Part shown: positions 77 to 41,039 of the stretch, one piece after another
Layout of the letters: the number at the start of each line of letters is the position of its first letter
Position numbering within the stretch: the stretch's first letter is position 1
Assembly: GCA_030264375.1 (NCBI GenBank)
Contig: JASCQW010000132.1
Coordinates: 77,766,882 to 77,830,881 of the forward strand
Length of the DNA stretch: 64,000 nt
Reading direction: 5' to 3'
Source: Carcharhinus longimanus
Lineage: Eukaryota
Notes under the pieces: generated by a model
What the model was told of the DNA's origin: nothing
Seen by the model: the letters and a program-made list of their open reading frames with translations, nothing else
The model's database searches: none
Program-made: the position numbers and the translations under genes

Positions 77-339
77 AAACCTACTTCCTGGACCAAGTTT
101 TTGGTCATGTGCCCTGATCTCATCTTTTATAACTTGGGTGTCAAATTTTGCTTTGTTGTGCTGCTGTGGGAAGTCTTATTTTACTATGTTAAAGGCACAA
201 TATAAATACATGTTGTTGTTGGCGAGATGGTCTGTAAGTTTGCAGACAACAGTCATTTGAGGGAGTGCCAGAACTATGCAGAAAAAGGGAATTTTGCAAG
301 TGGACCAAACAGTTCTGGGGGTGGGCCAAACCCTGCTTG

Positions 340-6780: not shown

Positions 6781-7330
6781 CCCCACAATTTGCCTGGACT
6801 TGCAAAATCTCACTAACTTTCCNNNNNNNNNNNNNNNNNNNNNNNNNNNNNNNNNNNNNNNNNNNNNNNNNNNNNNNNNNNNNNNNNNNNNNNNNNNNNN
6901 NNNNNNNNNNNNNNNNNNNNNNNNNNNNNNNNNNNNNNNNNNNNNNNNNNNNNNNNNNNNNNNNNNNNNNNNNNNNNNNNNNNNNNNNNNNNNNNNNNNN
7001 NNNNNNNNNNNNNNNNNNNNNNNNNNNNNNNNNNNNNNNNNNNNNNNNNNNNNNNNNNNNNNNNNNNNNNNNNNNNNNNNNNNNNNNNNNNNNNNNNNNN
7101 NNNNNNNNNNNNNNNNNNNNNNNNNNNNNNNNNNNNNNNNNNNNNNNNNNNNNNNNNNNNNNNNNNNNNNNNNNNNNNNNNNNNNNNNNNNNNNNNNNNN
7201 NNNNNNNNNNNNNNNNNNNNNNNNNNNAAGCTTGTGGTGTTTGCTACAAATAATCCTGTTGGACTTTAAGCTGATGTTGTGAGACTTCTTTCTGTTTTTA
7301 CCCCAGTCCAACGCCGGTATCTCCACATCT
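6781..7330 (+). mobile_element. Penelope-like element terminal repeat, core hidden in gap
   Basis: 'aagcttgtgg..cctgttggactttaagctgatgttgtgagacttct..ccccagtccaacgccggtatctccacatc' matches the arms at 14176-14390. Confidence 0.7.
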
Positions 7331-11396: not shown

Positions 11397-12600
11397 GTTT
11401 ACTTTGACTTATTTTGCAGATGATTCCTTGGCATATATATATTTTCCTGGTTTCCTCCTCCGACTCTCCAATCTCTTCAGGGTCACGGTCAAGAGAAAAG
11501 AAAGCTAGTATCAGTCCAGAGTGTTAAAAAAAATCACAACTCCTTGCCTTTGCTAATACCGAATTTCCGCAGTCAGTTTGACCTTAATGCAATTGATGGC
11601 AATATGGTCTTTTGGAAACTGTTCCTTGAAGCCAGATCTGGGTTTGAGTTATTTTTTCTTTTGGACTATTTTATCAGAAAGTACTTCTCGTCACCAATTT
11701 TCCTTAAAAGTGCTTTTTGTTGGCAACCTTACTAGAAAACACACCTTGCTGGAAAACACACCTTGTAACCAGTCTTCCATTTCTCTTGCTGTGCAAGTAA
11801 GCTGATCGCATTAATATATAACATTTCTCAAATTCCCTCAGTGTTTGACTTCTGTGCTCTGTGGATTTTGCTGCCATCTCTGTGCATCTCAGGTCTCTCC
11901 TAATGGTGTTTAGTGTTTTATCTTCTTTAAAAACCGTGTGGCTTCTTACTGAAGGTTTTTAAGATGGGTAGAATAAAAAGTTAGTATTGTAAGTGAGAGT
12001 TCAAAACAACAAGGCATAAGATCTTAAGTTGCAAAGAGAATTATGATGCATTGTAAACTCAATGACTTAATAGTGAAAAAGTCTTCTACATGAAAAACAT
12101 TGGTTTAATCATTGCTTTAATTAGAAATACAACATTGCCTGCAGTAAATAATTAATGTGATAAGATCATATATTACTGAGAGTATCATTAGTCATTGGAA
12201 ATCTATAGGGTTGACAACACCTTTAATATTTACAGTACAGTTACCATTTTTAAATGATTAATTAACTAAAAGTTTTAAGTATGAGGAATGTTCAAGTTTG
12301 TGAGGCAGATTGCCTTCAGTGGAAAATATCCTTAGAGGCTGAAATAGAATGATACAGTAACATTTTGGTTAGTCTTTGAAGCACCGCTTCAAGGAGATAT
12401 TATTAGCCATGGGTTCAGTCCATGAGGGAGAAAAAAGCAAAGGAATAGAGTGAAGAAAAGTTTAATGCAAATTGAATTCTTGTTTAACATATGATTGTGG
12501 TGAAAGCTAGGAAACTAGCTGCTGTGATTAGTCAAAAATCGTTCCTTCTGGTTATGAGCTGCTTATAAACAGGAGAAGATAATTGAAAATTCAATTCATT
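11397..12600. repeat. Local segmental duplication, copy 1
   Basis: Colinear similarity with 16300-17490, including identical 'aattatgatgcattgtaaactcaatgacttaatagtg' and 'gtttaatgcaaattgaattcttgt'. Confidence 0.92.
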
Positions 12601-12602
12601 TT

Positions 12603-13182
12603 TGTTATGATGGCCACAAAGGGCACAGGTGATTGCCAATAGATCTTCCCATGAGCTTTTTGGAGTGTGAGGTTATNNNNNNNNNNNNNNNNNNNNNNNN
12701 NNNNNNNNNNNNNNNNNNNNNNNNNNNNNNNNNNNNNNNNNNNNNNNNNNNNNNNNNNNNNNNNNNNNNNNNNNNNAACAGTGGAGGCTACCTCATTAAA
12801 TGTGTTTAAGTCACAAATAGATAGATTTTTAACCAATAAGGGAATTAACGGTTATGGGGAGCAGGCGGCTAAGTGAAACTGAACCTGCTAACAGTTGAAC
12901 CATGATCTTATTGAATGGCGGAGCAGGCTCGAGGGCCTAGATGGCCTACTCCTGCTCCTATTTCTTATGTTCTCATGTAACTCCTTTACTGAGCAAGCGA
13001 AGGCCCACACAATGGGAAGTGAGCAGTGGGGCTGGGGAGGAACCTGTTGCTTCAACTCAGACTGGTATCCTATAGGTCCCTGCTTTTTGAATTGCATGTT
13101 GTAAACTGCAGGTATGGCTCTTCCTTGTATTATTGTTAAAGCATTTTTGGTGACAGAAGACTGGCCTTGCACAATTATTACA
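12603..13182 (+). mobile_element. Gypsy 5' LTR interrupted by a CR1 3' fragment
   Basis: Starts TGTTATG exactly where the duplication similarity ends; ends 'attattaCA' followed by PBS-like 'ttggcaatgagga' (compare tggcgacgagga). Confidence 0.65.
12677..12975 (+). mobile_element. CR1/HER1-like LINE 3' end
   Basis: VEATSLNVFKSQIDRFLTNKGINGYGEQA plus 3' UTR and ttcttatg tail. Confidence 0.9.
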
Positions 13183-14175
13183 TTGGCAATGAGGAGTAAA
13201 AACAATTTTTTTTCTCTCCAACCTAGCTCCATTGTCAAAAACAAGCAACTTTTCTCCAGTAGAAAAAAGCCTCTTTTCAGGAAACTTGAACCTTACAAAA
13301 CCAATGGGAAAGACTGGCCCAACATATACAATGCATGCGTTACTTCATCTGCACCAACAACGTTGAAGGAAACAAAAAACAAGAAGTAATTTTACTGATG
13401 GCATGCGAGGCTCTGACTTTCAGCGTGACAAACAGTCTGATGTATCCAAATGGCTTTGACTTGTAAACTTTAAATGAGCTAGTAGACTTGGTGAAAAACC
13501 ACTGAAACCTGAAGTCGTCTGTTATTTATCCTGCAGAGATGCTGCTTTTACATGGCAGGGAGAATCCTTGGGGAATCTGAATTGTTACTGAATTTCTGGA
13601 CAGATTACGGAAATTAGTGGAACATTGTGAATTTGGACTGCCTGTAAACTAAGTGTTGAGAGACATATTGAAATGTGGCATAAATAACCTGACTACGCAA
13701 AAGAAGCTATTGGCAGAACCCAACCTGGACTTCAAAAAAGCCACTGAAATAGCTCCAATGATGGATAACACTGAAAAAAGGTACTCAGGACATATAAGGG
13801 ATATCAGACAGCAACGTCCTCCAATTAATAGGAGGGGCCCCATGTAATCAGTTCTCAGTGGAGAATGGTTACATAAACAAAATGTTAGAGGGTGCCTTAC
13901 AACAACAAAGCTCTAATAACACTGCCAGACAGTGAAGAAAAGACAGTGACAGCCCCAAAGTTTGGGGAATATTATTCCAGAGGCCAGACAATGGACGATT
14001 GCTAGCACTGCCAAAGGGCACAGCCAAAGCAAAATTTTAAGAATCTGCAAGATGCATGCCATCTAGTGAAGAAGCCAAGGTCTGTACCTGACCATACCAT
14101 GCAGGTATACCCACTTCCAGAAACAGGGGCATGACAACTGAATTGCATCATTACAACAAAGGTTGCTCCAATAGT

Positions 14176-14400
14176 CACGATATGGAAATGCCAGCATTGG
14201 ACTGGGTTAGGAACAGTAAGTAGTCTCATAACACCAGGTTAAAGTCCAACAGGGTTATTTGATAGCATGAACTTTTGAAGAATTGCCCCTTCATCTGACT
14301 CACCTGATGAAGGGGCGACACTCCGAAAGCTCGTGCTACCAAATAAACCTGTTGGATTTTAACCTGGTGTTGTGAGAGTACTTACTGTGCCTGTCCCAGT
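14176..14400. mobile_element. Palindromic element of two inverted Penelope-type termini inserted in the Gypsy
   Basis: 14213-14296 is the imperfect reverse complement of 14300-14388; interrupts KVAPI|VVELLV; possible target duplication ccaatagt (14168-14175) / ccagtagt (14396-14403). Confidence 0.85.
14301..14335 (+). ncRNA. Minimal (Penelope-type) hammerhead ribozyme motif
   Basis: cac-CTGATGA-a-gggg-cgaca-ctcc-GAAA-gc-tc-gtg: both catalytic boxes, stem II, short palindromic stem III and stem I cac/gtg. Confidence 0.75.
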
Positions 14401-16299
14401 AGTGGTAGAACTGCTGGTGAAAGGTTATCCCTTGAAACTGGAGATGAACACAGGGACTGCATTCTCCATTATTAGGACAGGCTTCCAACTTTTGAGCTTG
14501 GAAGACATGAATGTCAGACCAGCCATCTACATGGGGAATTCTTTACAAATAAAAGGCATCACAATGGCCCCAGTAACTTGCAGGCAGCAATCAGCTCATC
14601 TTTCACTCATTATTGTATGGGGGCAAGGACTAAGCCTTGTGGGGAGAGATTGACTCCAGCAGATCAGGCTGAACTGGTTGAAGATCTTCAGGCTAGGCGT
14701 GGGGGCACTGTATGAAACTATCAGTAGATGCCCTGGAATTTTCCATGGAGGACTGAGAAAAATAAAAATGGGCCAAAAGCAAGAACTATGTGGCCCCGAA
14801 GCTATACCTAAATATTTCAGAGCATACTCCCTGTTGAAGAAGGTAGGGACTGAACCCAAACAAAGTTTAGACATAATAAGGCCTCTGCAATTTGCAGAAT
14901 GGGGAGTGCCTGTAGTCCGTGTTCTTAAGTTGGATAGGTCGGTTTGTCTCTGTGGGGATTATAAGCTAACAGTCAATTGAGCTTCCAAACTTGATGAGGT
15001 ACCCCATGCGCTGAATTGAAAACCTGTACCCTAAGTTAGCAGGTGGCCAGATGTTCTCCAAGTTGGACATGAACCTTACCTATTTTCAGCTTGAATTGGA
15101 TGAGTCTTCCTGAAAATGCGTGATGGTCAATACACCCAAGTGATTGCACAAGTATTACCAGTGGCCCTTCAGGTCTTGTCAGCATGCGCCACATTCCAAC
15201 CATTTATGGAAAACATACTCCAAGGGCTACCCAGAGTGACAGTCTACCTGGAAGATGTCCTGGTCACGGGGGCTTCAGAACAAGAGCACCTGGCAACTTT
15301 AAAGAAGTCTTATAGAGATTCTCAACAGCCAGAGTACAGAGGGAAAAATGTGTCTTTCAAGTGACTGAAATGACCTACTTAGGCTATTGGGTAGATGGCA
15401 AAGGTTTATACTCAATAGCGGATAGGATGAAGGCCATTAAGGAAGCATCAATCCAAGAAACAGCACAGAGTTAAATCCTTCCTGGCATTAGTAAATTGTT
15501 ATGGAAAATATATCCTAAATTTGGCTTCCATGCATATTCCTTTGCATACCCTACTATAAAAATACCAAAGATGGTCCTGGGAGGTGCCACAGGTGGAAAC
15601 ATTTGGCAAAGTTAAGCAGTAGTACTGTCATCTAAAATATTGGCCCATTTTGATTCCAAGGAAGAACTCATTCTAATATGTGATGCTTCTACATACAGGG
15701 TTAGGGCAGTGCTTGACCATTGCTGGAAAGATGGGACGGAAAGGCCTATCACATATGCATCTAGGACTCTTTTGGATCCTAGCAGAGGTATTCTCAAATC
15801 AAGAAAGAGTGATTGGTAAATAGTATGTGGTGTGAAAAAGTTCCATCAGGACATCCACGGTTGATAGATCACAAACCCTTATTGGGACTTTTTAAAAAGA
15901 TAAGGTGATTTCCTCCATTGCCTCCACCTGAACAGAGTATTTATCTTGAGACTTATGGCCTTTCAATACCTTCTACAGCAGCATCCTGGAACCCAGATAG
16001 ACAACACCAATATGCTGGGTCACTTCCCATTGCCCACAAGCCTTGCTCCTCTACCAACATTAGAAGAGGTCATGATGACCCTAAATGTTTTGAAGACTTT
16101 GCTAATGTCCACAAGACAAACTAAGGCCTGGACACAAAAGGATCCAATCTTGAATAAAATAAAGCATATATACAGTGGGTTCTGAGGACAACGCTGCATC
16201 AATTACCCTTCGTCACTCTCTCTGGAAATAAAAGTGCTCCATTCAGTTCACATGGCCAGACCCAGGCCTGCCTTTGATAGGCCTCAGGCCAATCAGCAA

Positions 16300-17490
16300 G
16301 TTTACTTCAACTTCTTTTGCAGTTGATTCATTGGTTTAGATTTTTTATCTAGTTTCCTGACTTCAACTCTCCATTCTCTCCAGGTTTGTGCTCAAGAGAA
16401 AAAACAGTAAGGTTGCTCCAAAGTGATTTCTTTTAATTTTAAGAAGTAATTGCTCCTTTTAGCCTTTGCTAATACCCAATTCCCATGGCGACTTTTATCG
16501 TAATGTAATTGATGGTGGTGTGATCTTTTGGGGACTGTTCCTTGACATTAGGTCCAAGTTTGAGCTGATTCATTTTTGGACTATTTTGTCAGAAAATGCT
16601 TTTTGATGCCAATTTTGTCTAAAACCGGTCCTTGCCGATGATCTTGCTAGAAAACACACTTTGTCACCTTTCCTTTTCTTTTGCTGTACAAGTGAGCTGA
16701 CCACATTAATATATAACATTTCTGAAATCCCCACATTGTTTGTTTTCTGTACTTTGGGGATTTTGCTACCATCTCTATGTTTATATCTCAGGCCTCTACC
16801 TGTGGCACTTCATGTTCTTCCTTTTTAAAAACAATATGATTTTTTACTGGAGGTCTTTAAGATGGACAGAATGAAAAGATAGTACTGTAAGTGAGAGTTC
16901 AAAAACAGTAAAGCATGAGATCTTTGATTGAAAAGAAAATTATGATGCATTGTAAACTCAATGACTTAATAGTGGAAAGGTCCTCTTGATTTAATCACTG
17001 CTTTAATTAGAAATACAATATTGACTGACGTAAAGAATTAATGTTGTAAGATGATACAAGATTACAGAGAATATCATTAGTCAGTGGAAATGTATAAGAG
17101 TCGATAACACCTTTAATATTTACAGCACAGTTACCATTTTTTAAACTGAGTGAACTAACATTTTTAAATATGAGGAATGTTTTATTTCAGTCAGGCAAAT
17201 TGACTTCAGTGGAAAATAACCTTAGAGGCTGAAATAAAGTGATTCAGTAACATTTTAGTTAATCTTTGGAGCACCTCTTCAAGAGGATATAATTAACCAT
17301 GGGTTCAGTCCATAGGGGACAATAAAACAAAAGAATAAAGAGAAAAAAGGTTTAATGCAAATTGAATTCTTGTGTAACATATGAGTGTGGTGATAGCTAG
17401 GAAGCTGGAGCTGCTGCGATTAATCAGAAATCACCCCTTCTGGTCATGAGCTGCTTATAGACACAAGAGAATAATTGAAAATTCAGTTAA
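16300..17490. repeat. Local segmental duplication, copy 2
   Basis: Colinear with 11397-12600. Confidence 0.92.
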
Positions 17491-17719
17491 TTTTATATTC
17501 ATATTTCTTAAAATCAAAGGAGTGATGAACTCCAAAGAGAAAATATTAGAATCCCAAGCTCTCAGTAGTAGTTAAATTTATGGACATGATTTTTGGTTCA
17601 TAAATTAATGCTGTTTCTGCCACAGAAGGATATATTAAAGCACTAACTCACAATATTATATTAACTTGTATGACAAAGTTTTTCCCAGCCTTATCTTTAT
17701 ATTAAGTAATAGTATTCTT

Positions 17720-40092: not shown

Positions 40093-40665
40093 TTTGGGCA
40101 TCCTCAAGGTACCTCAGCATTCTCCACTAACTGCACAAAGACCTGATATTGTAAAATTTGTATGTTTCCAATGAAGTTATAATGTTATTTGAGTTATTGC
40201 CACAACTAAAAACTTGAAAAGTGAACATGAATAATTTAAAATAATTATTTTAGAATGTTGTTATAAATTTACTTGACAATTATGGGGACATGTGGACATA
40301 ATGCCTACATTGTTATTTGCAGATTTTAGCATTTTAATAAAATAACGAAAGTATAATTTCCATTTATGCCATTTCATCAGGTGGGTCTTTTGAAACAATG
40401 CATGTTGTGTGGGAGAATCCCAGCATAAATAAATAGCCTTGGTTTAAAGAGCTAAAACAAAATGCATTTTTGCTCGTGTTAAATTTTTAACTTGCATTTC
40501 ATCTGTTAAAAATACCATGTAGGAATCGCACAGAATACTTCTCAACACAACAGTTTTCAGCACAGGGTTCAGACGGGTTGACTGCATGAACTTCATAAGG
40601 TGTGATACAACGGAGCAAAGAACAAAAGGGGGGGGTGGCAATGGTATTAACTGTTTACATGGCTT

Positions 40666-40860
40666 GACACAGTAAGAAGTCTCACAACACCTGGTTAGAG
40701 TGCAACCAGTTTATTTGATAGTAATCTCACAAACTTTTGGAAACGGTGTTCCTTTGTCAGGCGTGTGGAAGGTTCTGATCAGAGAAGGGCATATAAAGTC
40801 ACACTCAGTTTACAGAATACTGATTAGAATGCAAGTCTTTACAGCTAACCTGCTATTCAA
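40666..40860 (-). mobile_element. Penelope-like terminal repeat with degenerate hammerhead
   Basis: Matches the left arm of the 14.2-kb palindrome; reverse strand reads cctgacaaaggaacaccgtttccaaaagtttgtg. Confidence 0.7.
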
Positions 40861-41039
40861 GTCTTAAAGAGACTACTACGTGGCTTGAGCCATGGCATCA
40901 TAAATGGTATCATAATCTTTTGATCTAATGTAACAATGAGAGATGGAGTTATCTGTCGCTTTTCGTTTCCATGTAACTTCAGCGTTTTAAAATCATATTT
41001 CTTGGATAAGCTTGCATGGAAAAGGCAATCGAGAGTCAT

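What the first reader, a model, noticed from the sequence alone, without database searches (positions are those of the whole stretch)
14176..14403. Palindromic Penelope-derived mini-element carrying a hammerhead ribozyme, inserted in a Gypsy
Seen: two ~85-bp arms in inverted orientation form a long hairpin. The + arm has a complete minimal hammerhead (CUGAUGA, stem II, GAAA, palindromic AAGCU stem III, UC cleavage site). The - arm has a mutated copy (cagatga..caaaa). The unit has no coding sequence and sits between near-identical 8-mers (ccaatagt/ccagtagt). Known: Penelope-like elements carry minimal hammerheads that can cleave as dimers, and retrozymes are non-autonomous hammerhead-bearing retroelements. 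Inference: this may represent a mobile non-autonomous family whose ancestral unit encoded a ribozyme on both strands (a viroid-like rod layout), or it may be an inversion product of Penelope integration.
Basis: partly seen in the sequence, partly recalled or inferred. Interest (0 to 1): 0.72.

Follow-up and report, generated by a model that had tools for sequence, protein, structure and literature searches.

The report
Head-to-head Penelope stub in shark
This real DNA palindrome is one of probably tens of thousands of short head-to-head leftovers of a Penelope-type jumping gene in a likely shark genome, most likely built anew at each landing rather than spreading as a ribozyme mini-element, and an extra G at its centre likely marks where the element's capped RNA begins.

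Summary
The palindrome, the + strand minimal hammerhead, the target duplication and the LTR-retrotransposon host are real. The minus-strand 'mutated hammerhead' is a truncated arm: it starts inside the core, at the junction. The unit is two 5'-truncated ends of a very abundant Penelope-like element joined head to head, one with the 36-nt tail and one without. That layout is published. It is not a master-driven mini-element: the exact junction is unique in the genome, 100 listed short junctions hold 69 different sequences, and the two arms of a copy share subfamily variants, with no arm-specific ones. The hairpin would bury the ribozyme (34 kcal/mol), and no excess of arms starts at its cut site. 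The mechanistic clue: arm starts pile up at an initiator-like A 6 nt before the core, about 32 nt behind a TATA-like box. The base before that A is G in 1,838 of 3,012 non-native cases but in 1 of 100 long copies, as expected for a copied cap. Arms are not nested. Likely mechanism: both cut target strands prime on capped sense RNA and run off its 5' end. The scan noted such palindromes before (82 notes, at least 11 genomes).

The parts
14168..14175 (+). Left copy of target-site duplication (8 bp; may extend to 14162-14166)
   Evidence: 7/8 match to 14396-14403; host relatives are contiguous across the site
14176..14295 (-). Tail-bearing arm: pLTR end from +2 (C3 of the hammerhead = 0) to the ORF start position; lacks C3-U4 and the 5' strand of stem I
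   Evidence: profile hit on minus strand starting at +2; arm alignment
14176..14211 (-). 36-nt 'tail', ending at the position of the parent ORF start codon
   Evidence: longer copies continue from here into an ORF; 3' ends are bimodal at +80..96 and +118..130
14296..14297 (+). 2-nt junction filler; the G at 14297 is the inferred cap-derived base
   Evidence: not templated by either arm; genome-wide G excess at this position
14298..14395 (+). Short (tail-less) arm starting at the initiator-like A (-6); right end uncertain, 14389-14395, because tail start and target resemble each other
14301..14335 (+). Minimal type I hammerhead (no helix III; AGCU palindrome); predicted cut after 14332
   Evidence: motif read from sequence; stem II variation in 98 family arms; no Rfam match
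14396..14403 (+). Right copy of target-site duplication
11397..17494 (+). Decayed Ty3/gypsy-type LTR retrotransposon (host); 1.2-kb direct repeats 11397-12602 / 16300-17494, 76% identical; many stops and frameshifts
   Evidence: self-BLAST; PF17919 RT_RNaseH_2 48.8 bits, above cut-off, read with X at stops

Best explanation
This is one old insertion of two 5'-truncated ends of an abundant Penelope-like retrotransposon, joined head to head between a target duplication, most likely assembled during that single insertion event and probably inert since. Shown here: family membership of both arms, one tail arm plus one short arm, variable junctions, arms of a copy sharing subfamily variants, arm starts piling up 4-11 nt before the hammerhead core, and a G excess directly before the A at -6. 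Inferred mechanism: the element's pLTR promoter (TATA-like box about 32 nt upstream, initiator-like A at -6) makes a capped sense RNA. The element protein, shown for the anole PLE to nick and extend both target strands and to start at two internal RNA sites, primes one strand at the tail site and the other at the short site. Both cDNAs run towards the RNA 5' end, here only 95-130 nt away. Longer arms would come from read-through tandem transcripts. The template was uncut at the hammerhead, and the finished hairpin would keep the hammerhead from folding. Identity as a de novo PLE inversion: about 0.9; twin priming to a capped start: about 0.6.
For: Abundance: 4,905 first-look candidates; all 40 scored match on both strands. 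In 136 tiles (1.24 Mb of read bases) there are 78 other loci; 20 of 47 gap-free loci are head-to-head, as are 15 of 29 loci picked without regard to the junction. Parent: an ORF starts at the tail end; RT homologs, best named from sharks, carry PF00078; a VVY..C..C..YIGET motif in 2 copies, one 504 bp before the hammerhead. De novo origin: exact 27-nt junction 1 match; 682 short-junction matches, the first 100 rows giving 69 different junctions, commonest 16 rows (counted by eye). In 57 pairs, within-copy distance is 0.141 against 0.161 for all between-copy classes, 0 of 5,000 permutations; diagnostic site +76 agrees between arms in 46 of 51 pairs; no arm bias at any of 12 variable sites. Two loci with the same 12-nt junction belong to different subfamilies. 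Twin priming: 30 of 35 pairs have one tail and one short arm; in 12 of the 30 the short arm reaches at least 5 nt further 5', so neither arm contains the other; the focal copy is of this kind. Capped start: 20 of 79 arm starts fall in -10..+2. Base -7 is C 11,470, G 1,838, A+T 1,174, G 61% of non-C against 26% expected; in long copies it is C 95, T 4, G 1 of the first 100 of 5,382. Of 19 G loci inspected, 11 are not explained by partner arm or target (by eye). TATA-like 8-mer at -32/-33 in 9 of 16 long copies. Literature: PMC11167929, PMC3846280, PMC8557442, PMC11702581 (extra G from capping in full-length L1-mediated insertions).
Against: No RNA 5' end was observed: only contigs were available. 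The G excess is partly confounded by microhomology with the partner arm: 5 of the 19 G loci, plus 1 point mutation and 2 unclear. In the first random tiles 0 of 12 short-upstream arms had G. Many arms extend 1-5 nt past -6 with native C, so the start is not a single base. Profile-derived ends are accurate to about 5 nt. The GIY-YIG-like motif was not recognised by Pfam, the RT fragment scored below the Pfam cut-off (25.3 against 29.6), and no full-length RT+EN ORF was recovered. The D. virilis Penelope promoter is reported as internal and TATA-less (PMC2377424). In vitro the anole protein showed no strand difference in RT start site (PMC11167929), so the one-tail asymmetry is not yet explained by that work.
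Confidence: 0.72

Rival explanations
1. Same de novo PLE inversion, but made by fold-back self-priming (on the first cDNA or on an antisense RNA, as proposed in PMC3846280), with later asymmetric trimming that leaves one tail.
For: Small palindromes and microhomologies are frequent at junctions; 9 of 30 pairs have nearly equal 5' extents; arms start out identical.
Against: In 12 of 30 pairs the tail-less arm has 5' sequence that the tail arm lacks, so the arms are not nested. Fillers and very unequal arms occur (-476 against +25 in L140). A pile-up at an initiator-like A with an extra G points to a sense, capped template.
Confidence: 0.2
2. A non-autonomous palindromic mini-element that spreads as a unit from a master copy with ribozymes on both strands (viroid-like or retrozyme-like).
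For: Similar lengths of about 200-235 bp, own target duplications (14 of 27 against 1 of 102 control pairings), some recurrent junctions (16 and 5 of 100 rows); some copies keep both cores whole (L005, L013).
Against: Focal junction unique; 69 junction types in 100 rows; no arm-specific variants; identical junctions in different subfamilies; focal minus arm lacks C3-U4 and stem I; forcing the hammerhead fold costs 34 kcal/mol and its pairs have probability below 1e-10 in the hairpin; no tandem arrangement.
Confidence: 0.04
3. The 5' pile-up reflects RT stalling at the hammerhead's stem I, or a splice boundary there (in D. virilis the intron ends at helix I, PMC4209133), not a transcription start.
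For: The hot spot coincides with the 5' edge of stem I; starts spread over about 10 nt.
Against: Neither stalling nor splicing predicts an extra G; a spliced template should give one recurrent upstream exon, but upstream sequence differs among the 30 loci inspected; TATA-like spacing fits a start site.
Confidence: 0.15

Closest known systems
Insertion units of endonuclease-bearing Penelope-like elements with inverted pLTR, one-sided tail and TSD (Pen2a_Av, PMC3846280; general scheme PMC8557442; D. virilis inverted terminal repeats, PMC2377424)
   Same: Head-to-head pLTRs, inverted copy 5'-truncated, 30-40-nt tail on one end reaching into the ORF start, 8-14 bp TSD, TATA plus TCACT initiator-like motif in the pLTR.
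   Different: Reduced to about 220 bp with no ORF between the arms; very high copy number; genome-wide extra G at the initiator, which I did not find described (paper searches).
Minimal type I hammerheads of metazoan PLE pLTRs (PMC4209133)
   Same: No helix III, palindromic 15.2-16.2, unpaired base between A9 and 10.1, G10.1-C11.1; that paper also reports dual motifs 100-700 bp apart on opposite strands.
   Different: Helix I is only 3 bp and helix II 4 bp in this decayed copy; the second arm lacks part of the core; activity untested.
PAc Poseidon element in vitro (PMC11167929)
   Same: Two 3' end classes about 35 nt apart match its two internal RT start sites; template uncut at the hammerhead.
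   Different: Here the ORF starts at the tail end rather than within the hammerhead; in the passages read the paper does not address head-to-head joining or cap run-off.
Non-LTR retrozymes (10.64898/2026.07.22.740005)
   Same: Non-coding, hammerhead-bearing, related to PLE pLTRs.
   Different: Defined as direct tandem repeats with at least two complete hammerheads; this unit is inverted, with one complete motif.
L1 twin priming and cap-derived extra G (PMC11702581)
   Same: Inversion made from two primed target ends; extra G at full-length 5' junctions.
   Different: L1 arms cover different parts of the RNA; here both arms cover the same stretch.

Membership tests
EN+ Penelope-like element | Single ORF with RT | tested here: met
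   ORF starts at the tail end in longer copies; RVT_1 E 1.5e-5, below cut-off; 102 homologs, the best at 72% identity and above cut-off
EN+ Penelope-like element | C-terminal GIY-YIG endonuclease | tested here: inconclusive
   VVY..C..C..YIGET-type motif in 2 copies, 504 bp before the hammerhead in one; motif label recalled; Pfam gave no hit
EN+ Penelope-like element | RT groups with PLE/telomerase clade | not tested
   No tree built; homologs carry no PLE names
EN+ Penelope-like element | pLTRs in direct or inverted arrangement with one-sided 30-40 nt tail | tested here: met
   30 of 35 pairs have one tail and one short arm; partial tandems in L041 and L082-L111
EN+ Penelope-like element | Target-site duplication | tested here: met
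   7/8 at this locus; 14 of 27 against 1 of 102 controls; empty sites
Minimal PLE hammerhead | Core CUGANGA-N / GAAA / UH, helix I and II, palindromic helix III region | tested here: met
   + arm only; stem II pair 3 is A-T 62, G-T 24, G-C 8 of 98 arms selected for an intact core
Minimal PLE hammerhead | Self-cleavage as dimer or with protein | not testable with these tools
   Indirect: no excess of arm starts at the cut site (206 against 489 for a control position, not normalised)
Non-LTR retrozyme | Direct tandem repeats with at least two complete hammerheads | tested here: not met
   Inverted pair; minus arm starts at +2
Non-LTR retrozyme / viroid-like unit | Spreads as a unit with a fixed monomer junction | tested here: not met
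Non-LTR retrozyme / viroid-like unit | Circular RNA intermediate | not testable with these tools
   No RNA holder on record
Ty3/gypsy LTR retrotransposon (host) | Terminal direct repeats; protease-RT-RNase H order | tested here: met
   1.2-kb repeats at 76%; PF17919 above cut-off downstream of protease-like and YxDD-like motifs read by eye; integrase not detected

The most novel reading that the evidence does not exclude
These mini-palindromes are a genomic record of the whole Penelope integration reaction: a protein dimer primes both target strands at the two internal start sites of capped sense RNA, each cDNA runs off at the cap (leaving an extra G that maps the transcription start 6 nt before the hammerhead core), and the two ends are joined head to head. 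That would replace antisense self-priming as the source of PLE inverted pLTRs and explain why one-unit transcripts yield only stubs while tandem transcripts yield full elements.
Probability: 0.55. Interest if true: 0.55.

Novelty: new member of a known kind. Interest (0 to 1): 0.3.

Why it matters
The locus itself is an old, inert repeat of a published layout. Its value is statistical. How PLEs make head-to-head pLTRs is stated as unresolved (PMC3846280, PMC8557442). This genome holds enough stubs (about 148,000 loci by extrapolation, about 43% of gap-free ones inverted) to read the reaction from its products. The extra G, the non-nested arms and the one-tail rule give direct predictions for the existing in vitro PLE system.

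Tried and rejected
Rfam: no hammerhead family at E<=10 in two scans; the MIR841 hit is far below its gathering score and reflects the hairpin. RNA runs: no RNA holder listed; the guessed-RNA run X1 gave only family-level contigs; neither is used as evidence. Search for a full-length RT+EN protein among longer sequences: none (weak test). Pfam on the GIY-YIG-like stretch: none. Pile-up of arm starts at the hammerhead cut site: a weak bump in tiles (8 of 79 starts in +24..+35) was not supported by pattern counts (206 against 489; fixed words differ, not normalised, and loci were not inspected). Shared junctions as a sign of a master copy: two pairs fetched; the arms differ in subfamily variants and the flanks are unrelated. 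ADAR-type one-strand editing in the focal arms: the 15 differences are mostly G>A and C>T in the left arm, several at CpG, and do not look like editing. Assembly artefact: rejected. A planned further 200 kb of random tiles was not obtained, so the census rests on 136 tiles. Sequence look-up in earlier findings: nothing; word look-up for a cap-derived base: nothing. Supplements of the papers were not read; those of PMC11167929 (Fig. S2) may bear on junction structure.

Full report
Observation. The inverted repeat is real: arms 14201-14295 and 14306-14400, 95 nt, 84% complementary, folding at -140.7 kcal/mol with z = -15. The left arm carries extra outer bases down to 14176. The + arm holds a minimal type I hammerhead: 3-bp stem I, CUGAUGA at 14304-14310, one unpaired A, 4-bp stem II, GAAA, AGCU palindrome, predicted cut after 14332. 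Rfam has no hammerhead match. The flanking 8-mers match 7 of 8. Of 10 related copies of the host element, 7 had a left-flank match reaching the site, and all 7 run directly into the right-flank sequence. The host has 1.2-kb direct repeats and an RT-type RNase H above the Pfam cut-off. Contigs of run X19 match the junction and both ends exactly; runs X20 and X23, with other organism codes, bridge both boundaries and the left boundary respectively, so the insertion is old.

Family. A genome search gave 4,905 candidates; all 40 scored matched on both strands. That set is biased towards similar junctions, so I drew unbiased samples. In 136 tiles including the window (1.414 Mb, 1.236 Mb read) a profile of natural copies found 78 other loci. 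47 lie away from gaps and tile edges, and 20 of these are head-to-head pairs; 31 near gaps or edges were not used for that share. Extrapolation gives about 148,000 loci. Of 29 loci picked with the 3' half of one arm only, 15 are head-to-head. Longer copies continue from the tail end into an ORF. Its RT part has 102 homologs, the best named from sharks (P0001 above the RVT_1 cut-off). A GIY-YIG-like motif (label recalled) lies about 500 bp before the hammerhead, but Pfam did not confirm it, and no full-length ORF was found.

Built anew or copied from a master? The exact 27-nt junction occurs once. A pattern with a variable centre has 682 matches; the first 100 rows hold 69 different centres, the commonest in 16 rows and explained by a 3-nt microhomology (counted by eye). 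In 57 gap-free pairs with one tail and one short arm, drawn from 118 loci, arms of one copy differ by 0.141 against 0.161-0.162 between copies, for tail-tail, short-short and tail-short alike (0 of 5,000 permutations). Non-CpG diagnostic sites agree within copies (+76: 46 of 51; +32 and +34 likewise), CpG-type sites vary independently, and none of 12 variable sites is arm-biased. Two loci sharing a 12-nt junction belong to different subfamilies with unrelated flanks. TSD-like repeats scored in 14 of 27 palindromes against 1 of 102 mismatched pairings. Each palindrome is therefore a separate event from one template type.

Ribozyme. In a transcript of the whole unit the hammerhead pairs have probabilities below 1e-10, and forcing the fold costs 34 kcal/mol, against 6.8 for the right arm alone. 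Both arms span the cut site, so their template was uncut. Arm starts at the cut site are not enriched over a control position (206 against 489, not normalised), although tiles showed a weak bump (8 of 79 starts). Stem II varies compensatorily among 98 family arms chosen for an intact core, so the motif was probably under selection in the active parents.

Mechanism. 3' ends are bimodal, at +80..96 and +118..130, like the two internal RT start sites of the anole PLE, whose protein nicks and extends both target strands (PMC11167929, parts 1-2 of 4 read). Of 35 unbiased pairs, 30 have one end of each kind. In 12 of them the short arm reaches further 5', in 9 the tail arm does, and 9 are within 4 nt. 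Non-nested arms cannot be plain copies of each other, which argues against simple fold-back. 5' ends pile up at -10..+2 (20 of 79 starts). Long copies have a TATA-like 8-mer 32-33 nt before the A at -6 (9 of 16), the arrangement noted for Pen2a_Av (PMC3846280, passages and Discussion read). The base before that A is C in 95, T in 4 and G in 1 of the first 100 of 5,382 long copies. Genome-wide it is C 11,470, G 1,838, A or T 1,174: G is 61% of non-native cases against 26% expected. An extra G is the known mark of a reverse-transcribed cap (PMC11702581, passages read). Against this reading: among 19 G loci of 30 inspected, 11 look untemplated, 5 can be partner microhomology, 1 is a point change and 2 are unclear (by eye); 0 of 12 short-upstream arms in the first random tiles had G; and no RNA end was seen. 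The focal copy fits the model: its short arm starts at -6 behind a filler ending in G, and its tail arm stops at +2.

Comparison. Inverted pLTR with one tail and a TSD is the typical PLE layout (PMC3846280; PMC8557442 and PMC2377424, passages read). Minimal hammerheads, including pairs on opposite strands 100-700 bp apart, are described in PMC4209133 (parts 1-2 of 4 read). Retrozymes are defined as direct tandems with two complete motifs (10.64898/2026.07.22.740005, parts 1-2 of 5 read), a test this unit fails. PMC6155905 (passages) added nothing on sharks. I found no paper describing cap-marked run-off or twin priming for PLE inversions in searches; the library lacks most subscription papers, and supplements were not read. 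The scan's own notes hold 82 similar findings in at least 11 genomes and 7 in this genome, including the twin-priming and start-site ideas. My note on these preceded those look-ups, and such notes are not independent support.

Verdict. A real but ordinary product of Penelope integration, not a viroid-like element: new member of a known kind, interest 0.30. The remaining value is the testable capped-start, twin-priming reading (probability 0.55, interest 0.55 if true).

Noticed in passing
window 7242-7329 and 40661-40872: Two more copies of the same family in the window: one tail-bearing arm and one longer tail-less single arm.
   Followed up: partly
L041:2063-2361; L082-L111: Partial tandems in which a pLTR plus about 70-90 nt of ORF is followed by a second arm that again starts near -6, often through 2-3 nt of microhomology.
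   Followed up: partly
random tiles: 31 of 78 family loci lie next to unread bases or tile edges; palindromic copies may break the assembly, so the inverted share is probably underestimated.
   Followed up: no
L217-L246: In 13 of 19 loci with G before the initiator-like A the base before G is T, as in the focal copy; possibly a further untemplated base added after the cap-opposite C (by eye).
   Followed up: no
L307, L308: The same 12-nt junction in two different subfamilies; it can be read as both arms ending in an extra G, joined by one filler base.
   Followed up: partly
L285:2493-2787; L032:5513-5638: 2 of 20 random pairs carry the tail on both arms.
   Followed up: no
window 14299-14306, minus strand: The family's antisense strand reads CAG|GTGAG, a consensus splice-donor motif, exactly at the 5' hot spot.
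   Followed up: no
window 11397-12602 / 16300-17494: The host's 1.2-kb direct repeats are only 76% identical, unusually diverged for one LTR pair; no integrase domain was detected.
   Followed up: partly
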